Shown here in pieces: positions 7,210 to 63,095 of a DNA stretch of 64,000 nucleotides. The notes under the pieces were generated by a model that saw nothing but the letters and a program-made list of their open reading frames with translations, did not search any database and was not told the DNA's origin. The DNA comes from Naegleria gruberi (lineage: Eukaryota), in assembly GCA_000004985.1 (NCBI GenBank), contig GG738900.1. One strand, written 5' to 3'. A program made the position numbers and the translations under genes. The stretch's first letter is position 1. Every line of letters starts with the position of its first letter.

Positions 7210-7494
7210 TAATTGACCTAAATCTTGTGGTTGGGAAGGAGTAGCTTGTGCTGTGAAAAGTTGGTGTTGTGATCTAATAAAACCGCACAGAAAAAGTACC
7301 TACTCATGTTTGACATTTTTTTTTAATATTTATTTTGAATAGTGACATGACAACCATTACAAATCATCACATTATTGACTTCCTTTTAGAGACATTATGC
7401 AGTAGTATTTACAGTTTTTCACCTTCACAATTCTTCATCATTTTCAACTTCCTTACAAAATTTTAAATATTGAATTTAATCTTTACAAAAAAAA

Positions 7495-17386: not shown

Positions 17387-20300
17387 ATGACACAATCACC
17401 TTCATCAAATCAGGGTGGTAATGACAAGAGCAAAAACTTTCCCAGCCGTATCAAAAGCTTTTTCATCAAGTCATCTTCTCCAACTAGTCCCAACAATTCC
17501 TTACAACCGAGAATTTCATCACCCAACTCTCCAAATCTTCCCAAAACTGCAAGTTCCAACACTCTTCCTATTCATATTCATAATAATAACAATAATATCG
17601 AGAACTCTCCATCATTCACCAGAAAGAGTAGTGCTAGCAATGAAATATCATCAGTATTATCTTCCTCTCCACTTGTTAATTCCCCATCATTAAATTCATC
17701 GTCGAATATCAATAATATTCGGCATAGTAACAATCAATTTTTGATGGTTTCTCCATCATTGAATAATAATAATAATATTTCTCCACCTAATAATAATAAT
17801 AATTCTAATAATTATTATTCAACAACAACGGGAACAACAACTTCAAACACTACATCATCTAACGAGGCAATTTCCCCAAATACCAATAATGGTGGTAGTG
17901 CTGCTGCTACTAGTGGAGGAGGACAACAACAAAACGACAACAACAACAACAATATTCAGCAGCATCAACTCGAGCCAATTGTTTTTGATTCGCCAAACTC
18001 ACCTCCAAATCACAGTAAAAACAACGGGTCGTTTTTGGCGGGAGAATTTGATAAGAAAAAAAATCATCATGAGCCTACAGTTTCATCCTCATCCAATTAT
18101 ACGACCACTTCGACATCAAATTCTATCGGAAGTGGTGGAGGTGGTAGTAGAAGAATGGATAGTACAGTATCGGATATTGTTGTTGGAGGACATATTTTGT
18201 CAAGTTCAGTGATGAATAGTGATTTGATGCAATATGATTTGAATTTTAATGAGGGAGGATCAAGAAAAACATTTGATTTTCATAACATGACAGCAAATTC
18301 GACACTGGGTAGCCTTCCTCCTGGAGGATTTTTACATGGTGCTTCGAATAGTCAAACTAATTTTGGAAGTGTAAGAGATTCTAATGCAATACTTTCGGAG
18401 AGTATGTTGGATAGACATCTATTGGATGTCCATCATCAAGATGGTATGTTCATCAATTATCTTACTTGATAATAATTGATTAACTCATTTATATTCTAAT
18501 AGATTCTATTTCTCAATCATCAATGGACTCAGCGAGGTCAACTCCTCATGTTAATATTGCCCGTTTGGGTCATCATCAAAAAGATACACATTCACAATTT
18601 AATGACATCACAGTTTCGGATGAAGGAACAACAGCTGAGGATACCTTGTCTGTTAATGGAGTTCCAATGAATGTAGATGAAATATTTCATGTTTATTCTG
18701 TAGAAAATAATCCAACCATATCCATGACAGGTTATGCTGACACTTACATGTCATCTTTTTCTAACATTAAAAATTCAACGAGTGAAGATAAGAATTTATT
18801 TGGATTACAATGTTTACCAAATATTTTCCAACCACTTTACTACAAAGATAATGATAATTCAGCCTATGGATTTTCAGAAATCAAGAAAGTTCCTCTATTG
18901 TCTCAACTGTCAGAACAGGAAGTTTCAGACTTGCCTGTACATGCACGCAAGACAATCAAAAACAAATATGAATCACCATTCCTTGTACTTTTATCAAATT
19001 CTAAGAAACAACATCATCTCTCTAGGAGCACTCTCAAAAAATTCTCTGTCAGTCAAACTAAAAAGCAATTAATTGAGGATACTAAATGGAGAATGTTTGA
19101 AGATGCCATGCTTTCAAAGGAAGTTAGATTTCACAATGATCCTAACACTTCATCCAGTAATCCAGTTTCGGATTACATTTTACCATCTGGAAAGAACGAC
19201 AAAACCAGAAACAGGTCAGACTCTGGAGGCTTACTGACATTGAAAACACTTTCGGATTTTGGTGGGAAACCTTCAACCAGTCCATCAACCAGTCCGACCG
19301 TTGGAAGTCCTCTAACACTCGAATCCATGTTTAAAAGAAAACAATCAGATTATGCAAGCTCACCAAATACTGATGATACATCTAGCCTTTCTTCAATGAA
19401 AGGGTACGATTCCAGTTCTGAGGAGGAAGAAAGCTTTCAAATTGCCAATTTTTCTCCTAGAATAATTCAAGAAATACCACATGGTTTCTTGGCTACTAGA
19501 TTGGACCTACTTAAAGATTATATGAAAGAATCATGTGAGGAAAACACTAATGTTTCACTGAAGAAGAATGTTGCTGAATACAAAGTTTGGAAGAAGGAAC
19601 ATTCTCTCCTCGAATTTTTATCTGACGATTTGATGAATACACACGAACTGAAAACAAAACTGTTTCCATTCATGTATGCACCAAACGAAAATCTGAAGGA
19701 TGGATCATCTGACATTTTACTTCAAAACTTTTATGTCAACAAGCAAGACGTTGATAATAGAGCCAAACTAATTATTGATATAGAAAAATTCAAGCTGGAT
19801 TTTGTTGAAGAGCACTTGAATGGAGTACCATTGGAGAATTTTTATGCCAGTTTAACCTTGTACTCTGTCAAGCTAACAGAATCTCAAAATCCATCCATCT
19901 CTGCAGTTAAAAGATATAGCGAAACATTTTCCTTCAATCTTTCGTCTTCATCCAATAATAGTAAGAGAGCTCTCTTCTACTTGTCAAGCCAAAATTTGCC
20001 TAACAGCACAGCACCAAACACTGAAAAGGTGTTTGTCTTGGTGAGAATATTTAGAAACTTTAAGGGAACTTATGCGGAACACTTTAACGAGCTCTATATC
20101 AAAGGAAAAAATACGCCAAAGAGTTCCTCTGATAAACCATTCAATGTCAATGACTCTAAAGATTACAAGGCAATCAAGGCTGTTAAACCAGCATTCTTTG
20201 AGTCTCTTAAGGATGTTTACTCTGCTTTTGCATGGTCTATTGTAGAACTCAATCCAATGCTCAACAGTCTTCCTGCTCTCCAATTCCCTAGTTTGTACAT

Positions 20301-23300
20301 GAATGGTGAAGGACTTTCAAACGATTTTTATGTGAAGAATATTTATTGTATACCAGACAAACTGGTTGGAAACGTTTCAGATGACAAGCTTTTCGAAGTT
20401 TATTTTGCCAATGGATTGAATCTCATCCCTAACGTTGCCGAAGTATCTGCAGGAGAAAGTGGAATTTCTGGAGGTCTTTCAACAAGCGAAAAAACCCTTG
20501 TTGTCAACAGTGGTAAGGATATCATCAAACAGCTGTCGAAGACAATGCTTAGAAGTATTCCTAGCAAGCTTACCTTCAAACTAATGCTGTTGCCTCCATC
20601 AAAATCTAATCAAACTCTTAGAGCTTCCCTATTTGAAAATGAAAAGCAATATCAATATGTACAGAGAAAATACTTACCGGAAAATAATATGTTAGTCATT
20701 CAAAAGGAATCTGTCACCGATCAAGTTGAAAAGAAAAAGAAGAATAGAGATGATAGCAAGGAGACCTTGCAGGCTGATTTACCTGTTACTGAAATGGAAC
20801 AGTTCTATTCTTCCAATACCATGCCAGAATCTACTACAAGACAAACAAATTTGAGAAATGAGCTTTACATTTATCCACAAAGTGCCAACTTTTCCAAATT
20901 TGCAGTCAAAAATAAGAATATTCAAATAACAGTGTCTTACAATGATACAGACCAAAACTTCTCACTCAATAATATGGAACAAAGAAACAAAGGACTTTTC
21001 TACAAACCTTTCACTAGTAATAATTCAAGTGACCGTATTAATGAGGGTGAATGTGTTAGTGTAGCTTTGAAGAACGAGAAACCAGAATTTAGTGATGAAA
21101 TCAAATGTATTATTCCGTGCCGTTATCCAACTGAGGATGAAGATTGTAGACAACACTTAGTTTTCAAGTTTTACAATGTTTCACACAAAGAGACAATTCA
21201 AAAGAAAGCTAGTGATGTAGAACTTTCTCAATCTAGAACTCTTATTGGTGTATCATTTTTGAAAGTATACAAGAAGGTAACAACAACAATTGATAAGAGA
21301 AAAATCATCCTCAAAGATCTAATTAATGGAGATTTTGAGTTGCCAGTTTATCCAGTTCTTAACATTCCAAACGCAAACTATTTGAGATTATGCGACCAAA
21401 TTATGGATCCTTCTCTAGTACATATCAAACCATCGGCTACTTTTAAAGTTAAAATTATTCCATATAGCTTTATTTTACCAAATATTGCTCTCACTTTCCC
21501 ATACTCAACCTCCAACATTATCAATTTGTTCCTTCTCAAGTTTTTCAGATTGGTTAACAATACAGTTTCTGTCACTCCAACATTTGAAGAAATTGCAGAT
21601 GTTTACAAGACTTTGATTCAAACTTACGAGTATGAAAAACAAGTTGTATCCAACACCATTTGGTTTGAAATGCATGCTTTATATTTACCAATGATATTGA
21701 ACACTTGTTTTGACTGGATTATTGACACCTTTGGTAAAGACAAGAATTACACAACAGAATTATGGAAAATTATCCTCTTCTTCATTGAAAAGTATAACCA
21801 ACATTCGGCATCTTCTTCAACTGTTCTCAAAATCTACCAAAAATATCATTTCAGATTCTCCAAGAGTGGGGATGATGTTATTTTCAAGTTGATCTCATCA
21901 TTTATTGACTCAATCAAAATTGAGAATTCCAAACTGAGTCCTAAAGGAAACGTATTTGAGGAACTCTTCTTGAGAAACAACCAAACAATATTTGGGTTAT
22001 TTTTGAAGAGTATTGTTTGTTCAATGAGTTATAATACTGTGGAACCATTCCAAGTCGATAATGAGTTTGATAATCTTCATATTATGACTAAGTCAAGTTT
22101 GAACGCCATAGAACAATTTACTGTAATGGTTTTGGAAATGGTGGAAAGAGTTTCATTCAAGAATGAAAAGCATACAATCCTCAAATCATTCTTGAAGAGT
22201 TTTGCTGCTTTTTATTCCCATCTAATTGCTATTTATTCGATAAAGGCAGAAAAGCGGTTTGAACTTGCAGGACTCATCTCCAAACAAGAAATTATCCAAT
22301 ACCTCCTTAAATTTATAGAGTCGATGGGTTATTTACCTTCTCTATACAAGTTGAAGAATAATGATAACGACTCTAAGAAATCCAAGGAAATCTCTACACT
22401 GGTATCAGAATCACAATTATTGATGATTAGTGAACTTTTACTTCATTTCCCTTCATTTGAACTTTCTCTACCTCCACCAATTTCTCTCCTTGATAGTATC
22501 ATTGCTCAAAGTCAAAATGCAGAAGCACCAATATCAAACTTTAGAGATATTCATCACTTTGTTTTCTCTTCATTTGCCGAATATTTCGTAAGAACAATTT
22601 ACTTGGCTGAAGAGAAAGAAGTTAGACTTAAGGCAATTTTACTATTCAAAGAATATGTAGAAAAGATCAGTAGAGAAAGTAGTACTGTTCAATTATCAGA
22701 AGAAAGTCAACCTGATGAACAAAAGGCCGAAGTTCGATCTAGAATATTCACTTCCCAATTACTTCTTGAATTCTTTGCCAAACATATGATTGAGATTTTC
22801 CCAGAGTGGAAGAGAAACGCAGAGTCTAATCAAAAGAAAATTACAACTGCTATTGAGGAGTTGAGAAGAAAAATATCACAAGTGGAAAGAGATATTCTTG
22901 CAGCCCAAGACAGTCTTAACCAGGCAAAGCAAAATAAGACAAAGAAGTCAACGGAACCAGAAAAGAAGTTGAACCACTTGGATGTTCAATTAACAACTTT
23001 GAAACAGTTATTGCTTACAAAAGAAAAGCAATTATTGGAGGAATTTGAAACAACCAAAACTGAAAAACGTATGCTTCTTTCTGTGTTTGTCCAAATAACA
23101 ACAAATTGTGATGAGAACTCGCTTAGATCTCTATGGAAGATTAAACCAGCTTCAGAAGATTCTAACATGTATCACGATGACGGTCTTCATTTCAGTTCTA
23201 AACTCTTGATGATATTCCAAATGTGTGTACAGAGTTTTGAGTATGGCGGCTATTCTCCTTTATATCACTACTTTGATAGACTCTACCAAAAGCTTCCACA

Positions 23301-26300
23301 GAATCAAACTGTGAAACACTCCACACCTCTCAATGAAAAATTCTCTCCAGCTAAATCAAACCCTTCAATTTCTAGGTCAGCAAGTGACAGGAAGAAAGGT
23401 GACGATAAACCACTCACCAAAATGAGTTTAGATGGACCTATGGATGTTGATTCTCCAGTGAGATCTTCTCCTAGCCAAGGAGCAAACAGTGGAATTTCTA
23501 AATCTGATTATATTGAGAAAAAGATAACCATTGAGAGATTGATTTCCAACGAGACAAGTTCAACCATTTTTCAACTCTTCTTAAAATTCATGGAAGACAA
23601 TGCCGAGTTTATTCAAAATATTGTTCGTCCAGGAGCATACATTGATCCAAAACATTTACCACCGATTTTGGAAAATATTGTCAGAACACTTTTGAATTTA
23701 TTGAGATCAAACCTAAGCGAATGCTTGACAATATCCGTATTGTTGTATTTGAGACATGTTTTATCTCAACATCCTTTCACTGCCATATTCTATAATCCAC
23801 AATCAGAATATGGTTTGCTATTCTCTGAAGAACTACTTCGTTTGAGTCACTCCAAGCTTGGTTCGATTAGAAAACACGCTGCTGCCTGTTTCTACTTGTG
23901 GATTCGTTTTTGCTTTGAAGAAAACAAAGGTATGACTGTTCCACAAATAATGGTAACTCTCTCCCTTTCAAGAAGATTGCAAAGTTATACCAAAATTACC
24001 CACAACTTTTTATCAGACAATACTATAGGTGATGAATCGTTTGATGATTCTGAAGGTATTAATGCTCTGGCTCACATTGAAGAATGTATTAAATTGTTGC
24101 CTTACTTTGCCATCAAGGATGAGGCAGCTCCAGGTTCAAAATTCTTCAAAATTAGAAACAAGTACGGAGCTCAAAAGGGTGATGTTACGGATAGAGAAGT
24201 CCAAGCCGAAGATAATAATGGAAAACAGAAAGGAGAAAGATTCCACACTGCTATGGTGTTCTTTAAAAAGATTGAAAACAAGGCAGATCAAAAGAAATTT
24301 GGACAGAAAGTTCTCGAAGTGTTAGACCAATTCCACGATTTATTGTCTGATCTTTCTAAAAAGTTACTCAGTCTTGTTCAAGATACCATGTCAATTAGGG
24401 CCACAATGATCAAGCGAAAGCAAAGTGAAACTAGCACTGTAACTTATGATCCATTCAAAACTGAAGAATTATTGTATAGAATATCTGACAATTATTCAAA
24501 ACTTCCTGAACTCAGACTTGCATGGCTGGAACAACTTGCCTCCTATCACAAAGGATTGGCCCAATATGAGGAGTCTGCACATTGCTATTTGAGAATTCTC
24601 TCTCTAGTATTCGATTATTTGGATCATCAAGCTACAAAGAAATTCACTCCCAACAGTATCAAAACGGAAACGTCTGTATTGGAAATTCTTCCACTCTCTC
24701 AATTCTACAGCATTTCTCCAATGTTGATAGAATTCAAGGTGAATCAAACAGGCATTCAAACTCAATCACTTTTAGGAGGAGGAAATTCCAAGTATGATTA
24801 CATGTCCGATCAGTCCATTGTGAATTACATACTCAAAACTATTGACTCTTTAGAGTTGGCTGAATGTTTCGAACACTGTATCATGTTATACAAGCTACTG
24901 ATTCCTATTTTCGAATCTAAATATGCTAACTTTACACAATTGCATATTATTTACGACAGATTGACACAACTCTATAAGAAATGCTCCTCCTTCCAATCAA
25001 CATCTAATAGCAAAGTTCCAACCTCTCCTAGTGATAATGAAACTACTAATGCCCTATCCCTCTCCAATATCTCTTCACTCTCAGCTTCAAAGACAACAGA
25101 AAACGAAACCGACAGTAGAGTATATAGCTTTTATTATCGTGTCAAATTTGTTGGAAGAGCATTTGGTGAATTGGATGGCAAAGTTTACATTTACAAAATG
25201 CCAAAACTATTCAAACTTTTTAAGATGAAGAACAAAATGTTGGAAATTTATGGAAAGGATGTAGAAGTTGTTTCTAAAGATGAAGCTGGAGTAGTTACCG
25301 CTGATGATGAGCTTTCAACTGGTTCTGAATCAAATAAGAAGGTCATTCAAATTAACCATGTCAAGCCATTCCTTCCAACTGTAGATCAAATGAAAATTTT
25401 AAGAAAGAAATTTGATGATCTCAATAGATTGAGTAATATTAGTACAAGTGTTAATAGTGCTCCTAGTACGAGAGGATCCGATAGAAATTACAAGACTATT
25501 CTCAAAAAGAGTCCAATGACCTCCAGTACTAGCAAATTACCAACAATGAGCAGTGATAGTCTCAGTCCTAGAAATCGTTCTAATTCAAACTCTCAACCTC
25601 CTCTTCCAACTCTCAGATCAAATATCAAATTCAAGAGTGACGAGAATTTGTCAGTTTACAATATGGAAGGAGTTGCTTCACCACTATCACCAAGAGATGG
25701 CATCCTATCGCCAAGTTCTCCTTCTAAAGTTTCCATTCCAAAACTTAATCTATCCAAGAATAAGAAGGAAAATTCAGGTAACCAAAGTGAATCCAACCAA
25801 AATGCCTTCCAAGATATGGAACGATTTTTATATGATAAGATTTTATCACTCAACTACTTTATTACCAGAGACTCTGAATTCCAAAGAAATATGAACCTCA
25901 ACCATTTCTTTTATGAATATTCTGTTGCTGCCAAAGGAGCAGACATTACTCAAACTTACAAGAAGAAGATTTTAATCACCACTGAAGAGTACTTCCCTAA
26001 TGTCATGACTCGTTTGGAAGTAGCTGAGGAAAAGGAATTTACACTCTCTCCAATTGAAAATTCAATTGAAATGATTGATACACAAGTTAAAAAATTAGAG
26101 ACTGCCATGAATTCAGTATTATCAACAGCTCTGGGTGACGTGGCGAATTATAGCGTTCTTGGAAATATGTTCAATCACTCTGTCCACACATCTAGTCACA
26201 GCAATAATACTGGAACACCTGGCTACAACAAACGTCACTCCATCAAAGGTGGTTCCAATTTGGTGATCAATTTGAACATGACCAATTCTCTAGGTACTGT

Positions 26301-27084
26301 TCCATACTTTAACGATCTGAACATTAATCCTCACACTGTCTCCACTCTACAAATGATCTTGCAAGGAAGCGTTCAAGCAAGGGTTGGTGAAGGACCTAAA
26401 AAAGTTGTGGAAATCTTTTTAAATAGAGAATTCAGAGAAAGATGGAAAGTTCAACAAGGAAACTCTGACCTTATCACCAAGCTTAATGAGAGATGTTTCA
26501 GATTTTTGTTATTGTGTGATAGAGGAGTCAAGTTGCATTCTCTCATAATCCACTCTCAAACACCAACAGCTACCAACAATAAGGATAGAATTTTACATGC
26601 AGAATTGGAGAAGGGTTTCCATGAAGTCAAGTCATTATTCGAAGCCTACCTAGAAATTCCAACTGTGAGAACCTTTGTACCAGTTGTTAATGGATCTATT
26701 GTACCAGAGAGAGTAACCAACATGAAGAAGGGACAAGAAACTGTAGAAACATTTATTACTGTCACTGTTCAAGATGTTTTGAATTATCCAGATTTATTCT
26801 ACAAGCACAATAATATTTCTTACAATACTCTGCAAAATCTTAAACTTGGCAAACAACAATTAACCGACCCATTCAAACAAATTTCAACACCATCAGAATC
26901 GCCAAGAAATGCAGACCTCCTCAATGCAATCAGAAACAACAATAGACTTTCAATTCCATCAACTAAAATGAAGGAATATTTGGAACAATTAAGTATTCCC
27001 TCAGGAAGATCTCTCAACTTGGATTCTGATAACCATCTAGTTCACGACTTACTCCTTCGTCAGTCCTCAGCTGATCTTCAATAA
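17387..27084 (+). CDS. DOCK-family (dedicator of cytokinesis) Rac/Cdc42 GEF of about 3200 aa. Structure is join(17387..18443,18503..27084).
   Basis: Exon 1 is a low-complexity Asn/Ser-rich N-terminus. GTATGT donor at 18444, TAATAG acceptor at 18502, phase 1. DHR-2 signature SKLPELRLAWLEQLASYHKGLAQYEESAHCYLRILSLVFDYL at about nt 24470-24620. Size and architecture match DOCK/Zizimin proteins. Confidence 0.8.
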
Positions 27085-27326: not shown

Positions 27327-29181
27327 ATGCACCGTACACAGATCGAGCAACAATACGGCATTAGCTTTCATGTTCCTGAGCGGTATCAGGATTTGAATGT
27401 TATTGGTAAAGGTAAGAAGAAGAAGATTGGTAGATTGTATTTATGCTAATAATATCCGATCATATGATGATTTTTAAAATTTTGTATTTTTGAATAATCA
27501 ACTGATTTTATGTAATCTATTGTACATTGTTGAAACTATTTGATAATGGATATATTTCTTCATCATGATTAATCAAATTAACATTTCATTAATAACAACA
27601 ACAACAAAATCTATTACGATCATCATCAAATTTTATATTCTCTCCACTTCTTGTATTACTAATACAATAATAATTTTAGGATCATATGGTATTGTTTGTG
27701 CTGCAAAGGATACATTAACCAATTCCAAAGTAGCCATCAAGAAAGTCATCCGATGTTTTGATCATCATGTTTTTGCTGTTAGATTATTAAGAGAAGTTAA
27801 AATTCTTGGCTTTTTAAATCATCCAAACGTTATTGATTTAAAGCATGTACAATTACCATTCCCCGATAGAGATAATTTTACAGAATTATACATGTATACA
27901 GATTTGATGGATACGGACTTGAAAACTATTATACAATCATCTCAAGAATTGACTAATGACCATATCCAATTCTTCATGTATCAAATACTTAAAGCTGTAC
28001 ATTATATACATAGTGGAAATGTTATTCACAGAGATTTGGTAAGTGTTTTTCTTATTATTTGAATATTAAATGTTTATGAATAATAATATATCTTTAATAA
28101 CATCATCATAACAATATCATTTGATTAATAACAACAACAACAACAACAGAAACCTAGTAATATACTTATTAATAGTGATTGTAATATTAAAATTTGTGAT
28201 TTAGGATTGGCTAGAGGATACAATGATGGAACAAATGCTAACGAGTCAGTACTTAAAGGATTATTAAAAGGACAAAAACAAATGAAGCCAAAACTTACTG
28301 AATACGTAGTGACACGTTGGTATAGAGCTCCAGAGTTACTTCTTCAATCGAATGCCTATGGTAAACAAGTGGACGTGTGGAGTGTTGGATGTATATTTGC
28401 AGAATTGTTAGGAAGAGAACCACTGTTTAGAGGAAGTTCACATTATGATCAACTTGTTAAAATTTTTGATGTTATTGGAACTCCAAAGGATAAGACAGAC
28501 TTTGAAGGAATTGAATTGACAGATTCTAGTTACAATATCCTTCAACAGATTAAAGTGAAACCTAAACGAGATTTTACCAGCATTTTCCCTAATGCTACAA
28601 ATGATGCTGTTGATTTACTAGAAAAATTACTTTGTTTTTCACCAAAGCAAAGAATTAGTGCTTCTGAAGCTCTAGAACATCCATATTTTGAAGATATCCA
28701 TACATTTAATGATTATGATTTTGCTTCATCATCATTTGACTATAGTTTTGAAGCTGATGCAACTAGTATTCCAGCAATAAGGCACATGCTCTATGACGAA
28801 ATTGCTAGAAAGTATGACCACTCAAATGATAGAGAAGATGTCATGACTAGATATGAATTACAGACCTCTATGAAACCTCCAGTTTCAACTGCTGTACAGC
28901 AAAATAATGTACAACAAACCACAAACAATTATCAACCTCAATCTCAACATTACAATCATCAACAACAACAATATGATGAGGATGACGAGAGTGATGAAGG
29001 GGACGATGAGGAAGTAGAAGATATGGACTTTGTGGGCGATAAAAAGTCAGAACAACAACATCAACAACAATACCACCATCAAATGCATCACAGAAATCTC
29101 AGTAATGCCGGTGATGATAGCATCCTCACCACCGATGAAGCATCAGATTATATGGAAGAATCAGATTCTGATTTTCTTTAA
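27327..29181 (+). CDS. ERK-type MAP kinase with TEY activation loop. Structure is join(27327..27411,27680..28038,28150..29181). Closest resemblance is to Dictyostelium ErkA.
   Basis: PERYQDLNVIGKG/SYGIVCAAKD (glycine loop across intron 1), VAIKK, HRDL/KPSNILI (across intron 2), DLGLARG, LTEYVVTRWYRAPE, Gln/acidic C-terminal tail. Donors GTAAGA and GTAAGT. The track start 27234 is TTG; the true ATG is at 27327. Confidence 0.85.
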
Positions 29182-32059: not shown

Positions 32060-32915
32060 GTGACCATGCACACATTCGTTTCCTTCTTGGTTTTGTTTCT
32101 GTTGCTTGTTATTCATCAACATGTGCAAGCCAGTTATTTAGATCTAGTTGTTTCGTCTCCTTTACTTTCGAATATTAAATCAAATGACGAAATTGTTGGT
32201 GTGAAAACATTTCTCACACTCTTTGCCATCAAGAATGAAAAGAGCAAACTGGCGAATTATCTGACAGAACTTTCTAATAATTCTTCTTTCACATCTAATT
32301 TTGCTCATGATTCGAATAGAAAATTATTAATGGAATGGCTCAAGACAAATTACATTTCAATTGGTGTAATGTCAAACCAAGTAAATTATTTAACTTCCAC
32401 ATTTTCACAATTCAACGTTTCCATCTATGAAGGTACAACAGTTTCGAATAATTCTCCACTGACATCTAATCATATATTTTAAAATATTTCCATCTTTCGA
32501 TTCATGTCAGAAGCGAAATTACTTGGAGAAATACGATGCTGTCTTGTTAGATCCGTATGCATTTGCGTTCTTTGTGAGGTTTTACAGAGATTCGTCTAGT
32601 TTAGGTTCTTCAATGATGCAAAGTAAGAATTTTGAACCAATTCCATTGATTCCATACGAAGTGTACACTAGGAGAATGATGGAAGCAAATCCATCAGAAC
32701 CAATGCAGGAATTGTTTGGTTATCAAAAATTATTGACATGTGAAAATCAACCAGATGTGTCAGATGCTCAATATTTTAGATTGCTGACAGGATACTCTAA
32801 TTATTCATCCCTATATGTTGCAATTATTGAAAGAATTACTGGAAAATCATCATTATTAGCTAATTACACACTCATCAATTCGAATATTCCAGCAATACTT
32901 TCGTACTTTGGATAA
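32060..32915 (+). CDS. Secreted N-terminal region, probably the extracellular part of the downstream 7TM-RGS gene. It is two ORFs with a small intron at about 32440-32505. An in-frame TAA at 32916-32918 separates it from the downstream ORF.
   Basis: Signal peptide MTMHTFVSFLVLFLLLVIHQHVQA. The ORF 32523..32915 is in the same frame as 32979..33593, with only one stop and 60 nt between them. Confidence 0.4.
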
Positions 32916-32978
32916 TCCGAAACTAATGGATTTTCTTCATCTTCTCTGGAAACTGTTTTACTCTCATCATCATGCTAC

Positions 32979-34233
32979 ATGTGCAAAACTTCCACATGCG
33001 CAGGAGAAAACTTTGATCCAACCTTAGATTTTTGGATAATCCCTCAATTCGTCATTATTTTCGGCTACTTTATACTATTGTTCTCTTTTGGATTATTCAA
33101 AAAACCATCCATGAGAAGAAGAATTGCCCTTCCCTACTGCCCAATTCTCATTCTAACCATCATGGTCATGTTCACATCTCTCTCAAGAATTTGTGTTTGC
33201 ATATTTTACAATATTTCAACTTTTGTAATGATTTGGTGGGTCTTTATTTATTCAGCCACAGTGATTAGATTCTATTTCTTGAGAAATTTATATTCCCTGA
33301 TTACTAGATTCCCTACTCGTGAGAAATTGATGAAAATTCTGGCATCTGAAAAGAGTGGTTTCGTTCTGACAGTTGTCTTGACATTTTTATTGGCATTGAC
33401 ATTCAATTCGGCTGGAATTTACTTCTTTTTTTTAGAGAATAAGTCCACTATTGATATTTACAGAGCTGCATGGATTGTTGGTTTTATTATTTTGGGTGGA
33501 TTGTTAGGTTTTCGTTGCAGTTTTGTGGGATATGATAATCCATGGAAAAACTATTCGAAAGTTTGGACTGAAACGATTCTTCTTTTTCGATGATCCATTG
33601 TATGTTAGAGTAGACATGTTACTTTTACTCTTTCCCATTGTTATTTGCATTCTAGTTGCTGTTGGAACTGCCTCGCTCGACGTTCAACAAAAAGAATATC
33701 AAAATGTTGGTGGAATTTTCAACACAATTTTGTGTTTCGTATTTTTGACAATGAATGGAGGAGGTGTAGTGCTGATTGAAATATACAAAAGAATTAGGTA
33801 TGCAAAATCTCAAAAGACCAATTCAGCAGATGATTTGGAAAATATTTTGAAAAACGAAGATTTGTTCAATTTATTTAGAGAATATTCTGAAAAGGAGTTT
33901 AGTTTGGAGAATATTGAATTCTATTCAGTCATGTTGAAATTGAAAGTGCAGAAAGTGGTGAGTGAGAAAGAGTTGGATGAAATTGATGATACTTTCATTA
34001 AGAATTATTCGAAATATGAAGTGAACTTACCTTCAAGTTGTAAACGAGAATTTTACAAACTCAAAGAACAAGCACAAGAGAAAACACACCAAGTTGAATA
34101 CTCTGCCTTGTGGCAAGTTTTTGGAAATGATTTGGTGTTGAACATGATGGATACCTTCAGAAGATTGCAAGAAACTTCAAACTATAGTCAATGGGAATCC
34201 GTTTCTAAATATCAGAAACACATTCATCCTTAA
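32979..34233 (+). CDS. Seven-transmembrane protein with a C-terminal RGS (regulator of G-protein signalling) domain. This is the same architecture as plant AtRGS1. A frame switch at 33525-33590 is either a 37-nt intron or a 1-nt error in a T5 run.
   Basis: Seven hydrophobic helices, the first being WIIPQFVIIFGYFILLFSFGLF and the last IFNTILCFVFLTMNGGGVVLIEIY. RGS signature LFNLFREYSEKEFSLENIEFYSVMLKLK. Confidence 0.6.
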
Positions 34234-51626: not shown

Positions 51627-53619
51627 TATTTACAGGTTGATGTGTTTGTTATTTTTTTTGTGGTTTTTAAATCTCTTGATATCAAACATAAAAACGCGGT
51701 ATAAAGTTAAAAATAGATTCTTATAGATGTGAAAATAGCTCACAATCGAAAGGATGAACAAAGCTTATTACAAAAGTGGAAGTGAAAGTGGTATTTATCA
51801 TGAATTTTATCACAGAAATCACTCTTGAAACATGAATTGTACTAGAATGTTCGAATTGATCAATTTAAGGTGGCACTGTAGCTCGCAATAAAAGACGAAG
51901 TAAACTGTTAATGTTTGAGAAGCTCTCCCACGGAATGCTACCACTCTGGAGATACAATTCGAAGAGAGTATATCCTATCAGATGTATATATTACAATCCT
52001 GCATTACATTTCTTTACAAATCGCTAGATATTGAATAAATAATAAAATCCTCTGTTGATCGAACTTGTAATCAGAAATGTGACGGTAAAAAAATTAAAGT
52101 TTCAACCCTCTTGCACGCAACAGCAACAAAATAAAACCCAGAGAAGAACAACATATGTTCTAGAGATGTTGTTCTATTTGTTCCTGCATTACATTGTTGT
52201 GATGTTGTTATGCGCCAATATTAATCACACAGTAGCCATTCCAATTTTAATTCTTGGCAGTGAAGGTCCATTCCAATTTTCACCACTTGCCTTTTTTGAA
52301 AAATTAAAGGACTTGGAAATATTTCTTAACAATATTGGGTCAACATCAGGTATATCATGCCTGTGTTGATTCTTGGTGTAATTTCACATCTATTAACTCC
52401 AAGAATTTCACCACATCATCTCATCATCATTTAAATAATATTATTAATAGTAATTTTTGGAATTCAATCCTTCATCATGATTTGGCAATAATTTTATTAT
52501 TTGGAAAAATTCAAGTTGGTACATCATCATCGGAACAACTACCAACCATCATTGTTATTTATCATCATTATAATAGTAATATTTGTGGAAATAAATCTGA
52601 TAATAGTATTATTTTAGTGAAATATTTTCACTAAAATCATCATCACTGCCAGATTTATATGATAATTTGGAAAACTTTCAATCTAGTATTGTTCAGCATG
52701 GTCGATTCCATCAGGTAAAATCACTTCCGAACGTTTTCCTATTGTTTATCATGATGATAGGTACATGTATATTTTCAACATGTACATGGACCATATCTCA
52801 ACATGTACTTCACCAACTTGGAAAATGTCTTTCATCACTACTATTCAAATACATAATAAACAATATATTTATCAGATTTTCATCATTTTGTGTTTTTGCC
52901 AACTTCGGGTTATTCATGGTCCCAATCATGATTCATGCCAAAAGTACAGTCAATCTTCTTGAAACATTAATAAACTTTTATTAGTACAATATTGTAGATG
53001 TACCATATCAATTATTTCGTCTTGTTTCGTTGAAATCATGAAGGGTTTGGAAACGTGTTGTTTTGATTTGTTTCTTCTGTGGCTCCATGGTCTTTATGAT
53101 CTGATATTGGGTTATTAAGCGCCGTTTGGGTATTTTGTTGGTTTTTTTAGTAAAGTTTTAAAAAAAGTATATAGTTCTTATCTAGTTATCGAGTTGTGGT
53201 GTAAATGTGTTGTTTTCAAGCTATTCGAAAGTAGTAACGATTTCGATATTCCGTTACTTTGCGTCACTTTGCGGACGGACTTACATTCAATCAATTTGGT
53301 TGTCATTCATATTGATGCGTAGAATTTTTGAGAGTATTTTTGAATGTACGTTATTTTTATCTACGCATGAATGAAAAGTACAACAATGATCAAGAGGAAT
53401 TGAGTCATGAGTATGATACTTTCTCAGATTGTTCTACGCATCAAGAGTATTCGATTCAGGATTCTATTCATATATGATATTTGTAATACATATATTGAAT
53501 TGGATGAGATGGAGTGCCATCTTGTTTTAAAAGTTGAGTCGACATTAAGGTATTCAGTAAATTGATACCACATGACTAATTAGAGTGATTATATGTCATT
53601 ATATCAATTTCTTTGAAAA

Positions 53620-54105: not shown

Positions 54106-57004
54106 NNNNNNNNNNNNNNNNNNNNNNNNNNNNNNNNNNNNNNNNNNNNNNNNNNNNNNNNNNNNNNNNNNNNNNNNNNNNNNNNNNNNNNNNNNNNNNN
54201 NNNNNNNNNNNNNNNNNNNNNNNNNNNNNNNNNNNNNNNNNNNNNNNNNNNNNNNNNNNNNNNNNNNNNNNNNNNNNNNNNNNNNNNNNNNNNNNNNNNN
54301 NNNNNNNNNNNNNNNNNNNNNNNNNNNNNNNNNNNNNNNNNNNNNNNNNNNNNNNNNNNNNNNNNNNNNNNNNNNNNNNNNNNNNNNNNNNNNNNNNNNN
54401 NNNNNNNNNNNNNNNNNNNNNNNNNNNNNNNNNNNNNNNNNNNNNNNNNNNNNNNNNNNNNNNNNNNNNNNNNNNNNNNNNNNNNNNNNNNNNNNNNNNN
54501 NNNNNNNNNNNNNNNNNNNNNNNNNNNNNNNNNNNNNNNNNNNNNNNNNNNNNNNNNNNNNNNNNNNNNNNNNNNNNNNNNNNNNNNNNNNNNNNNNNNN
54601 NNNNNNNNNNNNNNNNNNNNNNNNNNNNNNNNNNNNNNNNNNNNNNNNNNNNNNNNNNNNNNNNNNNNNNNNNNNNNNNNNNNNNNNNNNNNNNNNNNNN
54701 NNNNNNNNNNNNNNNNNNNNNNNNNNNNNNNNNNNNNNNNNNNNNNNNNNNNNNNNNNNNNNNNNNNNNNNNNNNNNNNNNNNNNNNNNNNNNNNNNNNN
54801 NNNNNNNNNNNNNNNNNNNNNNNNNNNNNNNNNNNNNNNNNNNNNNNNNNNNNNNNNNNNNNNNNNNNNNNNNNNNNNNNNNNNNNNNNNNNNNNNNNNN
54901 NNNNNNNNNNNNNNNNNNNNNNNNNNNNNNNNNNNNNNNNNNNNNNNNNNNNNNNNNNNNNNNNNNNNNNNNNNNNNNNNNNNNNNNNNNNNNNNNNNNN
55001 NNNNNNNNNNNNNNNNNNNNNNNNNNNNNNNNNNNNNNNNNNNNNNNNNNNNNNNNNNNNNNNNNNNNNNNNNNNNNNNNNNNNNNNNNNNNNNNNNNNN
55101 NNNNNNNNNNNNNNNNNNNNNNNNNNNNNNNNNNNNNNNNNNNNNNNNNNNNNNNNNNNNNNNNNNNNNNNNNNNNNNNNNNNNNNNNNNNNNNNNNNNN
55201 NNNNNNNNNNNNNNNNNNNNNNNNNNNNNNNNNNNNNNNNNNNNNNNNNNNNNNNNNNNNNNNNNNNNNNNNNNNNNNNNNNNNNNNNNNNNNNNNNNNN
55301 NNNNNNNNNNNNNNNNNNNNNNNNNNNNNNNNNNNNNNNNNNNNNNNNNNNNNNNNNNNNNNNNNNNNNNNNNNNNNNNNNNNNNNNNNNNNNNNNNNNN
55401 NNNNNNNNNNNNNNNNNNNNNNNNNNNNNNNNNNNNNNNNNNNNNNNNNNNNNNNNNNNNNNNNNNNNNNNNNNNNNNNNNNNNNNNNNNNNNNNNNNNN
55501 NNNNNNNNNNNNNNNNNNNNNNNNNNNNNNNNNNNNNNNNNNNNNNNNNNNNNNNNNNNNNNNNNNNNNNNNNNNNNNNNNNNNNNNNNNNNNNNNNNNN
55601 NNNNNNNNNNNNNNNNNNNNNNNNNNNNNNNNNNNNNNNNNNNNNNNNNNNNNNNNNNNNNNNNNNNNNNNNNNNNNNNNNNNNNNNNNNNNNNNNNNNN
55701 NNNNNNNNNNNNNNNNNNNNNNNNNNNNNNNNNNNNNNNNNNNNNNNNNNNNNNNNNNNNNNNNNNNNNNNNNNNNNNNNNNNNNNNNNNNNNNNNNNNN
55801 NNNNNNNNNNNNNNNNNNNNNNNNNNNNNNNNNNNNNNNNNNNNNNNNNNNNNNNNNNNNNNNNNNNNNNNNNNNNNNNNNNNNNNNNNNNNNNNNNNNN
55901 NNNNNNNNNNNNNNNNNNNNNNNNNNNNNNNNNNNNNNNNNNNNNNNNNNNNNNNNNNNNNNNNNNNNNNNNNNNNNNNNNNNNNNNNNNNNNNNNNNNN
56001 NNNNNNNNNNNNNNNNNNNNNNNNNNNNNNNNNNNNNNNNNNNNNNNNNNNNNNNNNNNNNNNNNNNNNNNNNNNNNNNNNNNNNNNNNNNNNNNNNNNN
56101 NNNNNNNNNNNNNNNNNNNNNNNNNNNNNNNNNNNNNNNNNNNNNNNNNNNNNNNNNNNNNNNNNNNNNNNNNNNNNNNNNNNNNNNNNNNNNNNNNNNN
56201 NNNNNNNNNNNNNNNNNNNNNNNNNNNNNNNNNNNNNNNNNNNNNNNNNNNNNNNNNNNNNNNNNNNNNNNNNNNNNNNNNNNNNNNNNNNNNNNNNNNN
56301 NNNNNNNNNNNNNNNNNNNNNNNNNNNNNNNNNNNNNNNNNNNNNNNNNNNNNNNNNNNNNNNNNNNNNNNNNNNNNNNNNNNNNNNNNNNNNNNNNNNN
56401 NNNNNNNNNNNNNNNNNNNNNNNNNNNNNNNNNNNNNNNNNNNNNNNNNNNNNNNNNNNNNNNNNNNNNNNNNNNNNNNNNNNNNNNNNNNNNNNNNNNN
56501 NNNNNNNNNNNNNNNNNNNNNNNNNNNNNNNNNNNNNNNNNNNNNNNNNNNNNNNNNNNNNNNNNNNNNNNNNNNNNNNNNNNNNNNNNNNNNNNNNNNN
56601 NNNNNNNNNNNNNNNNNNNNNNNNNNNNNNNNNNNNNNNNNNNNNNNNNNNNNNNNNNNNNNNNNNNNNNNNNNNNNNNNNNNNNNNNNNNNNNNNNNNN
56701 NNNNNNNNNNNNNNNNNNNNNNNNNNNNNNNNNNNNNNNNNNNNNNNNNNNNNNNNNNNNNNNNNNNNNNNNNNNNNNNNNNNNNNNNNNNNNNNNNNNN
56801 NNNNNNNNNNNNNNNNNNNNNNNNNNNNNNNNNNNNNNNNNNNNNNNNNNNNNNNNNNNNNNNNNNNNNNNNNNNNNNNNNNNNNNNNNNNNNNNNNNNN
56901 NNNNNNNNNNNNNNNNNNNNNNNNNNNNNNNNNNNNNNNNNNNNNNNNNNNNNNNNNNNNNNNNNNNNNNNNNNNNNNNNNNNNNNNNNNNNNNNNNNNN
57001 NNNN
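54106..57004. other. Assembly gap (N run, 2899 nt).
   Basis: Continuous N. The ORFs translated across it are artifacts. Confidence 0.95.
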
Positions 57005-57915: not shown

Positions 57916-59703
57916 TGTGGAACACGATATTATCATTTATTATGAGATTGGTAATTTTCCTATAGTATCTTCCTTAATTATCTTAATTGACCAAATTAGG
58001 TCAAGGAGAGATTTCAAAACATAAAATAAATTATATTTTCGAGATGTAGTAATGATTTCCAATCGATTGATATGTATTTTATAGATTGAGGATGTGGTTC
58101 TCTATATTCAAGATTTCCTCCTGATCTTCCCAACTCAACCTTGATATTTCACCCTTTACCTCCCGAATGGCGGTTTTTCCACCCCTCAGTTTTAGCCTTC
58201 AGTCAGAATAAAAAACACNNNNNNNNNNNNNNNNNNNNNNNNNNNNNNNNNNNNNNNNNNNNNNNNNNCATCTACTACTAACAACAACTAGTGAATGACC
58301 ACTTGACGAGTTGAATGAACAATGTCAACCACTAATCCATCTACTACTACTAACAACAACTATTGAACAAGTTTCTAATCAACATGATTGTAATGTGAGA
58401 GGTTGGAATGTACTACTTACATTGACAATAATTCAATATAGTTATAGTATTCTACAATAGAGTTTGTCTATTTACAATAGAACTATTACAAAGCTTATGA
58501 AATCCTTACTTGTAATTCAATCTGCTAAGGTTCGATTGGGTTGATAAATGATACTAGTTACTCGGATTGAAAGTATTATTACAAACAATCATAATAGAGA
58601 TGAATCTCACTCATTCAATATTGAGTTAGAGTTTCCAATTGTTCCTACAATAGAGAGATTTTATACCAATAGAGAGAGGATTAAACATCATGATCAATAT
58701 TATAACATACCCAACATACACAGGCTTTAATCTCTTCAATGAATCCAACTAGGGTTTTTATAGGATTATTCATCAATACTACTACTACTACTACCTACTT
58801 ACCTTAAACAATAACCCACAATAATAATGGACAAGTGAAAGTGTAACATTAGCAAACTAATGAAATTGTAACAATATAACCTACATTGTGGATGAATCAT
58901 GTTAGTGTATATATTCATATTGTTTAAATTGATGGACTCAAGATATTAATCATGTTAGTAATACGATTCCTACTAATACTTACTATTGTAGAGTAGTTAC
59001 ATGAAGTAACCTATGATCATCTAACCTATTGATAATGATGGAAATACAGAGAGATACCAATCAATCATAAAGAGTTGAAATAATTACTTACTGAAGAGTT
59101 GTTCCTTTGATTATTCGAGTACAACAATGACTTCCGAAGGAGGAATGTGAAAGCCTTTGATGGTTGAACTTAGTGTAGTGGAGAAATAGGATGATTATTA
59201 ATTACTAACACAGCACTTACCTGAGATGAATCGATTCGTGAGAAGATCTATTCAGTTGTGATTTTACTTTGAATTGGCTGATCGTCATTAGGCTTGATAC
59301 AGTCCTTGAATATTTAAAAGCGAGTTGATGAATGAGTACAAAGAAGTATTACTACAACACTTACCAAAACTAATTCCTAAATGATTAATGGATTGGTAAG
59401 GAGGAAGAGCTTTTCTTAAATTATAAAATCATTGCAACAACTTACTTGATTTCTTTCACATGATAAATCCTCTTCCTACCTCTTCCCACTCACAATCAGG
59501 CTAGTTATCATTAATATCCAAATAAACTACTACTTACTAGAAGAGTTTCAAATAAAGCTTTAATAGGGTTTAAATTGAAATTAACAATCAATAAACTTAT
59601 TAAGCAACCACTTGTTGTATGATGAATTATTTCTTGATGAAAACTGTAAAGATGGGTAGATAATGGTAGAGGTATTTTTTATTAATATACAAGAGGAATT
59701 ATC

Positions 59704-62700: not shown

Positions 62701-63095
62701 NNNNNNNNNNNNNNNNNNNNNNNNNNNNNNNNNNNNNNNNNNNNNNNNNNNNNNNNNNNNNNNNNNNNNNNNNNNNNNNNNNNNNNNNNNNNNNNNNNNN
62801 NNNNNNNNNNNNNNNNNNNNNNNNNNNNNNNNNNNNNNNNNNNNNNNNNNNNNNNNNNNNNNNNNNNNNNNNNNNNNNNNNNNNNNNNNNNNNNNNNNNN
62901 NNNNNNNNNNNNNNNNNNNNNNNNNNNNNNNNNNNNNNNNNNNNNNNNNNNNNNNNNNNNNNNNNNNNNNNNNNNNNNNNNNNNNNNNNNNNNNNNNNNN
63001 NNNNNNNNNNNNNNNNNNNNNNNNNNNNNNNNNNNNNNNNNNNNNNNNNNNNNNNNNNNNNNNNNNNNNNNNNNNNNNNNNNNNNNNNNNNNNNN
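59704..63095. other. Assembly gap (N run, 3392 nt). A further 50-nt gap lies at 58219-58268.
   Basis: Continuous N. Confidence 0.95.

What the first reader, a model, noticed from the sequence alone, without database searches (positions are those of the whole stretch)
32060..34233. AtRGS1-like 7TM-RGS gene with a signal-peptide N-terminal region, interrupted by an in-frame TAA and a frame switch in a T5 run
ORFs 32060-32482, 32523-32915, 32979-33593 and 33523-34233 together encode signal peptide, extracellular region, seven transmembrane helices and an RGS domain (FREYSEKEFSLENIEFY). A 7TM-RGS fusion is the architecture that defines plant RGS1-type proteins and is rare outside plants. Between the extracellular part and TM1 the two ORFs are in the same frame but separated by one TAA (32916-32918) with no canonical intron able to remove it. 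Between TM7 and the RGS domain the frame shifts by one nt inside TCTTCTTTTTCG. These are either draft-assembly homopolymer errors, very short non-canonical introns (37 nt, GTGGGA..AAAG), or early pseudogenisation.
Basis: partly seen in the sequence, partly recalled or inferred. Interest (0 to 1): 0.6.

Follow-up and report, generated by a model that had tools for sequence, protein, structure and literature searches.

The report
Broken Naegleria 7TM-RGS receptor gene
This is a copy, carrying a premature stop and two frameshifts, of a receptor-type G-protein regulator that belongs to a large family already described in Naegleria amoebae; it is most likely a young pseudogene, so the finding is real but ordinary.

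Summary
The window comes from Naegleria gruberi NEG-M. Bases 33616-34233 are 100% identical to the public model XP_002672115.1 (NAEGRDRAFT_72875, 205 aa). The four ORFs are real. Together they encode a signal peptide, an ectodomain of about 300 aa, seven transmembrane helices and an RGS domain (Pfam PF00615, 34.8 bits).

- The TAA is at 32913-32915, not 32916-32918.
- The downstream frameshift is at or next to the T4 run 33509-33512, at the end of TM5. It is not in the T5 run and not between TM7 and the RGS domain. A family HMM scores this repair 597.7 bits, against 562.3 for the T5 repair and 555.8 for the 37-nt intron.
- A third break (+1, within 32463-32479) separates ORF1 from ORF2.

No plausible intron removes the TAA or the TM5 frameshift.

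The gene belongs to a family seen so far only in Naegleria, Willaertia and unnamed metagenomic contigs (142 cluster representatives). It matches the published Naegleria fowleri "7TM RGS" class of 28 genes, whose RGS domains accelerate GTP hydrolysis. Only the RGS box aligns with plant RGS1, so "AtRGS1-like" describes the architecture, not membership. 7TM-RGS proteins are not rare outside plants.

Most likely this is a recently inactivated paralogue. Local assembly error cannot be excluded without reads.

The parts
32066..32131 (+). Start codon and predicted signal peptide (MHTFVSFLVLFLLLVIHQHVQA|SY)
   Evidence: First ATG of ORF1. Hydropathy peak 1.91 at residues 4-22. The V-x-A motif fits the (-3,-1) rule; this is read from the sequence, and no signal-peptide predictor was available. 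The family HMM aligns from residue 2.
32132..33020 (+). Extracellular domain of about 300 aa (5 N-x-S/T sequons), carrying lesions J1 and J2. In the paralogue it is predicted to adopt a fold like type-II periplasmic solute-binding proteins.
32463..32479 (+). Lesion J1: a +1 frame change between the ORF1 frame and the ORF2 frame. It is restored by deleting one base, for example one T of the run 32477-32480.
   Evidence: Bounded by the TGA at 32460-32462 in the downstream frame and the TAA at 32480-32482 in the upstream frame. The HMM covers ORF1's frame to 32461 and the next frame from about 32480. Intron alternatives score slightly lower (589-597 against 597.7 bits), delete a Cys present in 8 of the 9 sequences displayed (P0013 does not cover this region), and have exon-like GC of 29% against 18-19% in true introns.
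32435..32470 (+). Second copy of a 36-nt imperfect in-frame direct repeat (first copy 32264-32299). It encodes an 11-aa insertion relative to all paralogues shown, immediately 5' of J1.
   Evidence: 78% identity, spacing 171 nt. Seen as an insertion in the family alignment.
32913..32915 (+). Lesion J2: in-frame TAA nonsense codon in the ectodomain
   Evidence: It aligns with the middle residue of an N-[L/I]-[T/S] sequon in paralogues, so TTA(Leu)>TAA by one transversion is the simplest origin (inference). No plausible intron removes it.
32973..32999 (+). Conserved Cys stalk C-x2-C-x4-C (CYMCKTSTC) just before TM1
   Evidence: Cys residues 303, 306 and 311. Two of the three equivalent positions in P0001 (C301; C269 and C274 in ectodomain numbering) are at least 90% conserved in the family, and the third is the consensus residue.
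33021..33540 (+). TM1-TM5 (33021-33086, 33129-33191, 33195-33284, 33348-33428, 33441-33540)
   Evidence: Hydropathy. Helix boundaries transferred from the AlphaFold model of P0001.
33509..33512 (+). Lesion J3: a +1 frame change at or next to a T4 run (GGTTTTCG) at the cytoplasmic end of TM5. Deleting one T gives ...GGLLGFVAVLWDMIIHGKTIRKFGLKRFFFFDDPLYVRVD...
   Evidence: The HMM changes frame here. tblastn hits of paralogues switch frame at 33494-33518. 597.7 bits against 555.8-563.9 for the alternatives.
33544..33603 (+). Third intracellular loop with the family's hallmark F-F-D-D-P-x-Y-x-R-x-D motif, which runs on into TM6 (to 33615)
   Evidence: D502 and R507 are invariant; P503 and D509 are at least 90% conserved. 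The motif is also present in distant metagenomic 7TM-RGS relatives.
33604..33798 (+). TM6 (33604-33675) and TM7 (33691-33798)
33817..34230 (+). Cytoplasmic RGS domain, with the Galpha-contact motifs kept (EFSLEN, YEVNL, DTFRRL)
   Evidence: Pfam PF00615, 34.8 bits. phmmer matches human RGS10 and RGS4. The family profile matches RGS17 at 1.3e-8. Foldseek matches RGS8/16 with probability about 1.0 for the paralogue model.
34231..34233 (+). Natural stop codon (TAA)
33616..34233 (+). Extent of the public gene model NAEGRDRAFT_72875 / XP_002672115.1 (205 aa: TM6, TM7 and RGS only)
   Evidence: P0064 is 100% identical over 205 aa. Accessions and organism.

Best explanation
The locus is a Naegleria gruberi member of a receptor family seen so far only in Naegleria, Willaertia and unnamed metagenomic contigs. 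The family's architecture is a signal peptide, a solute-binding-protein-like ectodomain, a Cys stalk, a 7TM domain with a GPCR fold, and a cytoplasmic RGS domain.

Intact members are expected to sit in the plasma membrane and use the RGS domain to accelerate GTP hydrolysis on Galpha subunits, with the ectodomain and 7TM part tuning that activity in response to an external cue. That GAP activity has been shown for the isolated RGS domains of three N. fowleri 7TM-RGS proteins (a fourth gave uninterpretable traces). It is inferred here, not shown.

This particular copy carries three ORF-disrupting lesions within 1,050 nt: a +1 frameshift at 32463-32479, a TAA at 32913-32915, and a +1 frameshift at about 33509-33512. 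It therefore cannot make the full-length receptor.

Outside the lesions it keeps the family's conserved residues as well as intact paralogues do. It is therefore most likely a recently inactivated paralogue (a young unitary pseudogene, or a null allele) in a large, redundant gene family.
For: Organism and locus:
- A 100% match to XP_002672115.1 from N. gruberi.

Family:
- 142 cluster representatives at E<=1e-3. Every one whose source names an organism is Naegleria (gruberi, lovaniensis, fowleri) or Willaertia.

Architecture:
- Pfam RGS hit.
- Seven TM helices.
- AlphaFold model of the paralogue, pLDDT 79.6.

Lesions:
- Mapped with the family HMM and alternative-model scoring.
- No workable intron for J2 or J3.
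- True introns in the window have GTAAGT or GTAAAT donors, are 83-111 nt long and 18-19% GC.

Errors are not pervasive in this assembly:
- An 8.6-kb ORF and many ORFs of 1.2-1.8 kb in the same window are uninterrupted.

Recent decay:
- 53 of 57 columns conserved at 80% or more are retained, the same as intact members.
- RGS contact motifs are intact.

Function of the class:
- N. fowleri 7TM-RGS domains act as GAPs on Nf Galpha2, 3, 5 and 7 (PMC9283941).
Against: - No reads, quality values or independent assembly of this locus could be obtained. The lesions rest on one draft assembly.
- Both frameshifts can be repaired by removing one T from a T4 run. All three lesions lie within about 1 kb. 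This is also what a patch of poor sequence would look like.
- The otherwise perfect conservation fits an intact gene with sequencing errors as well as it fits a very young pseudogene.
- J1 could be an intron instead. The score difference is 8 bits or less.
- Expression was not tested.
Confidence: 0.62

Rival explanations
1. The gene is intact and functional in the organism. The stop and the frameshift(s) are base-calling or consensus errors in a locally poor stretch of the draft assembly.
For: - Both frame changes can be repaired by removing a single T from a T4 run.
- The three lesions cluster within 1,050 nt.
- Outside the lesions, conservation equals that of intact paralogues: 53 of 57 columns.
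- The window is a draft with large N gaps.
- A second gene in the window, an ARM-repeat gene, also has a lone in-frame stop, at 6430-6432.
Against: - The rest of the window shows long uninterrupted ORFs, including one of 2,853 codons. The general error rate is therefore far too low to give three hits in one gene by chance.
- The lesions span more than about one Sanger read length. That the assembly is Sanger shotgun at about 8x is from my own knowledge of the N. gruberi genome project, not a tool result.
- The public annotators also could not build a full model here; they kept only 205 aa.
Confidence: 0.25
2. Only the last ORF is a gene, as in the public annotation. A short protein of TM6, TM7 and the RGS domain (205 aa, starting at the ATG at 33616) would be made from the remnant, while the upstream ORFs are dead sequence.
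For: - Public model XP_002672115.1 is exactly this.
- The RGS domain has the best Pfam score of the six family sequences scanned, and intact contact motifs.
Against: - There is no separate promoter evidence.
- The ATG at 33616 lies inside TM6 of a collinear full-length gene.
- Short family members do appear in the search. Their architecture and completeness were not checked, so no natural 2-TM-RGS member can be cited in support.
- A signal-less two-helix fragment of a 7TM bundle is unlikely to fold or be targeted properly (inference).
Confidence: 0.08
3. The gene is functional as it stands. The interruptions would be bypassed by unconventional means: very short non-canonical introns, programmed +1 frameshifting, or stop-codon read-through.
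Against: - Both candidates lose 34-42 bits against the family HMM, because they delete conserved residues of TM5 or the third intracellular loop.
- True introns in this window are 83-111 nt with GTAAGT or GTAAAT donors and 18-19% GC.
- TAA, TAG and TGA all terminate long ORFs here.
- The intact paralogue P0001 has no interruption at any of the three sites.
- Three different recoding events in one gene have no precedent that I know of.
Confidence: 0.03

Closest known systems
Naegleria fowleri 7TM RGS protein family (28 genes; Bosch, Jeck & Siderovski, J Biol Chem 2022, PMC9283941)
   Same: - Same genus and same architecture: an extracellular N-terminus, 7TM, and a C-terminal RGS domain.
- A protein that its source names as an N. 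fowleri RGS-domain protein (P0037) is a significant homologue of the paralogue P0001, at 5.4e-40.
- The RGS domains of that family are demonstrated GAPs for Nf Galpha subunits.
   Different: - The ectodomains described for Nf 7TM RGS1-4 are EGF repeats, lectin domains and GPS motifs. This subfamily instead has a Pfam-less ectodomain of about 300 aa that is predicted to be solute-binding-protein-like.
- This copy is disrupted by three lesions.
- I did not establish which, if any, of the 28 N. fowleri genes is its orthologue.
Intact N. gruberi paralogues: XP_002678468.1 (P0013, 46% identity) and NAEGRDRAFT_45907 / XP_002682068.1 (P0144, 747 aa; 99% identical to P0001, which is 31% identical to this gene)
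   Same: Collinear over the ectodomain, Cys stalk, 7TM, FFDDP loop and RGS domain.
   Different: - The paralogues are uninterrupted. P0001's gene is one 2,238-nt ORF.
- The window copy has an extra 11-aa insertion plus the three lesions.
Plant RGS1 (AtRGS1 and orthologues)
   Same: - 7TM followed by a C-terminal RGS box.
- The expected logic is a receptor-GAP acting on Galpha.
- The RGS boxes are homologous: hhalign gives 77 columns, probability 83.5%, E=8e-6.
   Different: - No detectable similarity in the 7TM region.
- Plant RGS1 is about 450-480 aa with only a short N-terminus. This protein has a signal peptide and an ectodomain of about 300 aa.
- Plant RGS1 proteins did not surface when P0001 was searched: the members looked up were Naegleria, Willaertia or unnamed metagenomic proteins, and the seven 392-498-aa hits read directly carry this family's motifs. 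Most of the 142 hits were not looked up.
Class C GPCRs (mGlu, TAS1R, GPR158)
   Same: - The same order of modules: a bilobed binding-protein-type ectodomain, a Cys-containing stalk, then 7TM.
   Different: - No Pfam 7tm_3 or ANF_receptor hit at E<=1.
- The C-terminus is an RGS domain rather than a G-protein-activating tail.

Membership tests
RGS domain superfamily (Pfam PF00615) | Profile match above the curated gathering score | tested here: met
   34.8 bits against a cut-off of 23.9, E=2.4e-8 on ORF4. 33.2 bits on the repaired protein.
RGS domain superfamily (Pfam PF00615) | Galpha-contact residues: the S-x-E-N motif, and the Asn equivalent to RGS4 Asn128 in the E-V-N motif | tested here: met
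   EFSLEN aligns with EFSEEN of RGS10, and YEVNL with SQVNV. These columns are invariant or nearly so in the family: E606, N607, N650. The role of these residues comes from established RGS4-Gi-alpha1 structural work (my own knowledge).
RGS domain superfamily (Pfam PF00615) | GTPase-accelerating activity on a Galpha subunit | not testable with these tools
   Shown only for the isolated RGS domains of three N. fowleri relatives (PMC9283941).
Naegleria 7TM RGS family | Seven transmembrane helices N-terminal to the RGS domain | tested here: met
   [not shown]
Naegleria 7TM RGS family | Sequence homology to Naegleria 7TM-RGS proteins across 7TM plus RGS | tested here: met
   597.7 bits to the family HMM. 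Hits named by their sources as N. gruberi, N. lovaniensis, N. fowleri and Willaertia magna proteins.
Naegleria 7TM RGS family | An uninterrupted reading frame able to encode the whole receptor | tested here: not met
   TAA at 32913-32915, plus +1 frame changes at 32463-32479 and at about 33509-33512.
Plant RGS1 (AtRGS1-type) | 7TM domain homologous to that of plant RGS1 | tested here: not met
   hhalign of the family alignment (A1) against an 18-species plant RGS1 alignment (A2) aligns only the RGS box.
Plant RGS1 (AtRGS1-type) | Short extracellular N-terminus directly preceding TM1 (protein of about 460 aa) | tested here: not met
   About 320 residues (signal peptide plus ectodomain) precede TM1. 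The plant RGS1 proteins retrieved are mostly 450-480 aa.
Plant RGS1 (AtRGS1-type) | Sugar-induced phosphorylation and endocytosis through a C-terminal Ser cluster | not tested
   The protein ends 3 residues after the RGS-domain alignment. No C-terminal tail is present.
Class C GPCR | Pfam 7tm_3 and ANF_receptor (type-I Venus-flytrap) domains | tested here: not met
   No such hit at E<=1 for the repaired protein or for five paralogues.
Class C GPCR | Transmembrane-domain fold specifically closest to class C | tested here: inconclusive
   [not shown]
Pseudogene | Multiple independent ORF-disrupting lesions relative to intact paralogues | tested here: met
   At least two lesions, and most likely three. 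J1 could still be an intron.
Pseudogene | Lesions confirmed in independent reads, and no full-length transcript | not testable with these tools
   No other contig or protein for this locus was found in the collections.

The most novel reading that the evidence does not exclude
The subfamily this gene belongs to may be a receptor-GAP built like a class C GPCR. A ligand-binding ectodomain of the bacterial type-II solute-binding-protein fold and a Cys stalk would sit on a GPCR-fold 7TM that carries an RGS domain instead of a G-protein-activating tail.

Binding of a small solute (an anion, an amino acid or a nutrient) would then directly tune Galpha deactivation. That would be an independently assembled Naegleria counterpart of glucose-sensing AtRGS1.

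The window copy would be a recently lost member of this sensor repertoire in the sequenced strain.
Probability: 0.3. Interest if true: 0.45.

Novelty: new member of a known kind. Interest (0 to 1): 0.18.

Why it matters
It matters little for biology at large. It corrects a public gene model: NAEGRDRAFT_72875 is the C-terminal stump of a 721-codon 7TM-RGS gene. It adds one decayed member to a family already described in Naegleria.

Two points are modestly useful. First, the family HMM localises frame changes far better than looking for homopolymer runs between overlapping ORFs. Second, this subfamily's ectodomain looks like a solute-binding protein. If that holds, it suggests what kind of ligand these receptor-GAPs sense, which the N. 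fowleri work left open.

Tried and rejected
1. Frameshift repair in the T5 run. BLASTP seemed to support it at first ('ILLFDDP' against 'FLLFDDP'). I rejected it after the family HMM showed that the other frame ('DMIIHGKTIRKFGLKRFFFFDDP') matches the consensus 'DlilnrkkikekGlrkfLfFDDP' over the preceding 25 residues.

2. Introns at J3 (13, 25, 31, 37 and 40 nt). They are too short compared with real introns. The two that were scored, 37 and 40 nt, lose 34-42 bits.

3. Introns at J1 (70, 94 and 130 nt, including a GTAAAT donor). These are not excluded, but they are disfavoured. They remove a Cys present in 8 of the 9 sequences displayed. Their GC is 29-31% against 18-19% in true introns. Both frames stay open through the segment.

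4. Introns at J2. Only four in-frame GT-AG pairs exist. All are at least 285 nt and delete the Cys stalk. None of the AT-AC pairs has a U12-type donor.

5. An alternative genetic code. Rejected, because TAA, TAG and TGA all end long ORFs, and this gene itself ends in TAA.

6. Independent sequence for the locus. Five attempts all came back empty: exact-product look-ups of four ORF products, and a protein search with the ORF2 region.

7. The first protein search, with the whole repaired protein, returned only one hit. It missed the 100%-identical public fragment. Its 'one homologue' result was therefore discarded in favour of the exhaustive phmmer search.

8. The AlphaFold database fold library was unavailable, so the model could not be compared directly with an AtRGS1 model. 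hhalign against real plant RGS1 sequences was used instead. These sequences were retrieved with a query written from memory; that query served only as bait.
Full report
**What is in the sequence**

The window is 33% GC and gene-dense. It has N-filled gaps at 54106-57004, 58219-58268 and 59704-63095.

ORF4 carries a Pfam RGS domain above the gathering score, at 34.8 bits and E=2.4e-8. None of the other three ORFs has a credible Pfam match.

The neighbours are ordinary eukaryotic genes. They include a histidine kinase, an antistasin-like secreted protein, a serpin, RCC1-repeat, ARM-repeat and LRR proteins, and a kinase split by a canonical intron.

**Organism and public annotation**

Bases 33616-34233 translate to a protein 100% identical to P0064. 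P0064 is EFC39371.1 / XP_002672115.1 / NAEGRDRAFT_72875 / UniProt D2VV33, a 205-aa 'predicted protein' of Naegleria gruberi on a 312-kb scaffold. The window is therefore N. gruberi NEG-M. The public model keeps only TM6, TM7 and the RGS domain.

**The family**

The word-indexed protein search found one homologue, P0001: 745 aa, 31% identity, 95% coverage. Its gene is a single uninterrupted 2,238-nt ORF on a Logan contig. P0001 is 99% identical to N. gruberi NAEGRDRAFT_45907.

An exhaustive phmmer search with P0001 found 142 cluster representatives at E<=1e-3, of which 47 reach E<=1e-30. Many are 700-800 aa and match along their whole length. Of the 25 representatives looked up, every one whose source names an organism is from N. 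gruberi, N. lovaniensis, N. fowleri or Willaertia magna. The rest, including nine of the ten weaker hits checked, are unnamed ENA, Logan or JGI contigs.

The closest relative of the window gene is the N. gruberi paralogue XP_002678468.1, at 46% identity. Only the target locus in the window matches the family.

**Where the breaks really are**

I built an HMM from 36 family members and ran it against the three forward frames.

- ORF1's frame matches profile positions 2-116 and ends at nt 32461.
- The next frame matches confidently from just before the conserved Cys (about 32480), runs straight through the TAA, and ends at about 33530.
- ORF4's frame matches with high confidence from about 33508.

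In ORF4's frame, 'VAVLWDMIIHGKTIRKFGLKRFFFFDDPLYVRVD' aligns with the consensus 'iiiDlilnrkkikekGlrkfLfFDDPfyiRiD'. tblastn hits of paralogues change frame at 33494-33518.

I then scored complete alternative models against the HMM.

| Model for the downstream break | Score (bits) |
|---|---|
| Delete one T of the T4 run 33509-33512 | 597.7 |
| 40-nt GT-AG intron | 563.9 |

The downstream frameshift therefore lies at the cytoplasmic end of TM5. TM6 and TM7 are in the last ORF. Both frames happen to read '...FDDP' after the run.

The TAA is at 32913-32915. It aligns with the middle residue of an N-[L/I]-[T/S] sequon in the paralogues. A single TTA>TAA transversion is therefore the simplest origin; this is inference. 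Only four in-frame GT-AG pairs could excise it. All are at least 285 nt, have poor donors, and would delete the conserved Cys stalk.

It is a +1 change that must fall between the TGA at 32460-32462 and the TAA at 32480-32482. Here the HMM is not decisive: the frameshift repair scores 597.7 bits and the GT-AG introns 589-597. Three things favour a frameshift.

- Every possible intron removes a Cys present in 8 of the 9 sequences displayed (P0013 does not cover this region).
- The candidate introns are 29-31% GC. Three clear introns in the window are 18-19% GC, 83-111 nt long, and have GTAAGT or GTAAAT donors.
- Both frames stay open through the segment. Under an intron model, from base composition, that has a probability of roughly 0.08 x 0.30.

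Just 5' of this break the gene carries an 11-aa insertion relative to all paralogues shown. It is the second copy of a 36-nt imperfect in-frame repeat.

**What the protein is**

With the three sites repaired, the product is 721 aa. It comprises:

- a signal peptide;
- an ectodomain of about 300 aa with five N-glycosylation sequons;
- a C-x2-C-x4-C stalk;
- seven TM helices;
- a third intracellular loop with the family's invariant FFDDP-x-Y-x-R-x-D motif;
- an RGS domain that ends three residues before the stop.

The RGS domain keeps the EFSLEN and EVN motifs, which align with RGS10 and RGS4.

**How it should work**

Bosch, Jeck and Siderovski (PMC9283941) described 28 7TM-RGS genes in N. fowleri. 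They produced the isolated RGS domains of four of them. Three could be assayed, and these accelerate GTP hydrolysis on particular Nf Galpha subunits, including self-activating ones. A protein named by its source as an N. fowleri RGS-domain protein is a significant homologue of P0001.

By inference, intact members of this family are plasma-membrane receptor-GAPs whose ectodomain senses a cue. This has not been shown for any member of this subfamily.

**Status of this copy**

The copy cannot make the receptor as assembled. Outside the lesions it retains 53 of 57 highly conserved family columns, the same as intact members. Any decay is therefore recent.

The evidence against pervasive sequencing error is that the same window holds an uninterrupted 2,853-codon ORF and many ORFs of 400-600 codons. 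In favour of local error, both frame changes can be repaired by removing a single T from a T4 run, and all three lesions lie within 1,050 nt.

I could not obtain reads or an independent assembly. Four exact-product look-ups and one protein search were all empty.

My estimates are:

| Explanation | Probability |
|---|---|
| Real lesions (pseudogene or null allele) | about 0.6 |
| Assembly error in an intact gene | about 0.25 |
| Truncated product, or recoding | the remainder |

I retrieved plant RGS1 sequences using a bait query written from memory. The proteins returned are real database entries named RGS1. I aligned 18 of them and compared that profile with the Naegleria family profile. Only 77 columns of the RGS box align, at probability 83.5% and E=8e-6. 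Nothing aligns in the 7TM region.

Plant RGS1 also lacks the large ectodomain. 'AtRGS1-like' is therefore an analogy of architecture and probably of logic, not of membership.

The statement that 7TM-RGS fusions are rare outside plants is contradicted by the literature. Many bikonts, chytrids, filastereans and ichthyosporeans have them (PMC3971589). So do Trichomonas (PMC3865004) and Naegleria (PMC9283941).

**Verdict**

This is a real but ordinary feature: a disrupted, under-annotated member of a known Naegleria receptor-GAP family. Interest is low. The one aspect worth a specialist's second look is the solute-binding-protein-like ectodomain of this subfamily.

Noticed in passing
window 6430-6432 (minus strand), within 5647-7299: A lone in-frame TGA splits what reads as one continuous 550-aa ARM-repeat protein ('...SVLENPNSENNE*LANCLMSLSFVCEKKG...'). 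I saw no GT-AG intron that could remove it. It is a second nonsense-interrupted gene in the same 64 kb, and it bears on how common such lesions or errors are in this assembly.
   Followed up: partly
window 32264-32299 and 32435-32470: A 36-nt imperfect (78%) in-frame direct repeat inside the ectodomain-coding region (SNNSSFTSN / SNNSPLTSN). The second copy is an 11-aa insertion absent from all paralogues shown, and it lies directly 5' of the first frameshift.
   Followed up: partly
whole window, e.g. 9097, 9126, 9882 (introns), 33551, 36946, 46123, 53221: The decamer CTATTCGAAA (up to 1 mismatch) occurs 27 times against 5.1 expected from shuffles. Several copies lie inside true introns. Its meaning is unknown.
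   Followed up: no
[not shown]
   Followed up: partly
window 28039-28149: A canonical 111-nt intron (GTAAGT...ACAG, 19% GC) splits a protein kinase gene (ORFs 27565-28062 and 28207-29181). It was useful as the local standard for what real introns look like.
   Followed up: yes
window 18523-27084: One uninterrupted 2,853-codon ORF. I did not characterise it and used it only as evidence that the assembly is not generally riddled with frameshifts.
   Followed up: no
window 52046-52984, next to the gap at 54106: A chain of short overlapping ORFs in alternating frames, just before the first large N gap. It could be low-quality sequence or a decayed gene.
   Followed up: no
[not shown]
   Followed up: no
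method: The word-indexed protein search with the full repaired protein missed both the 100%-identical public fragment and a 46%-identical paralogue. The exhaustive phmmer search found both. A count of one homologue from the indexed search would have been misleading.
   Followed up: yes
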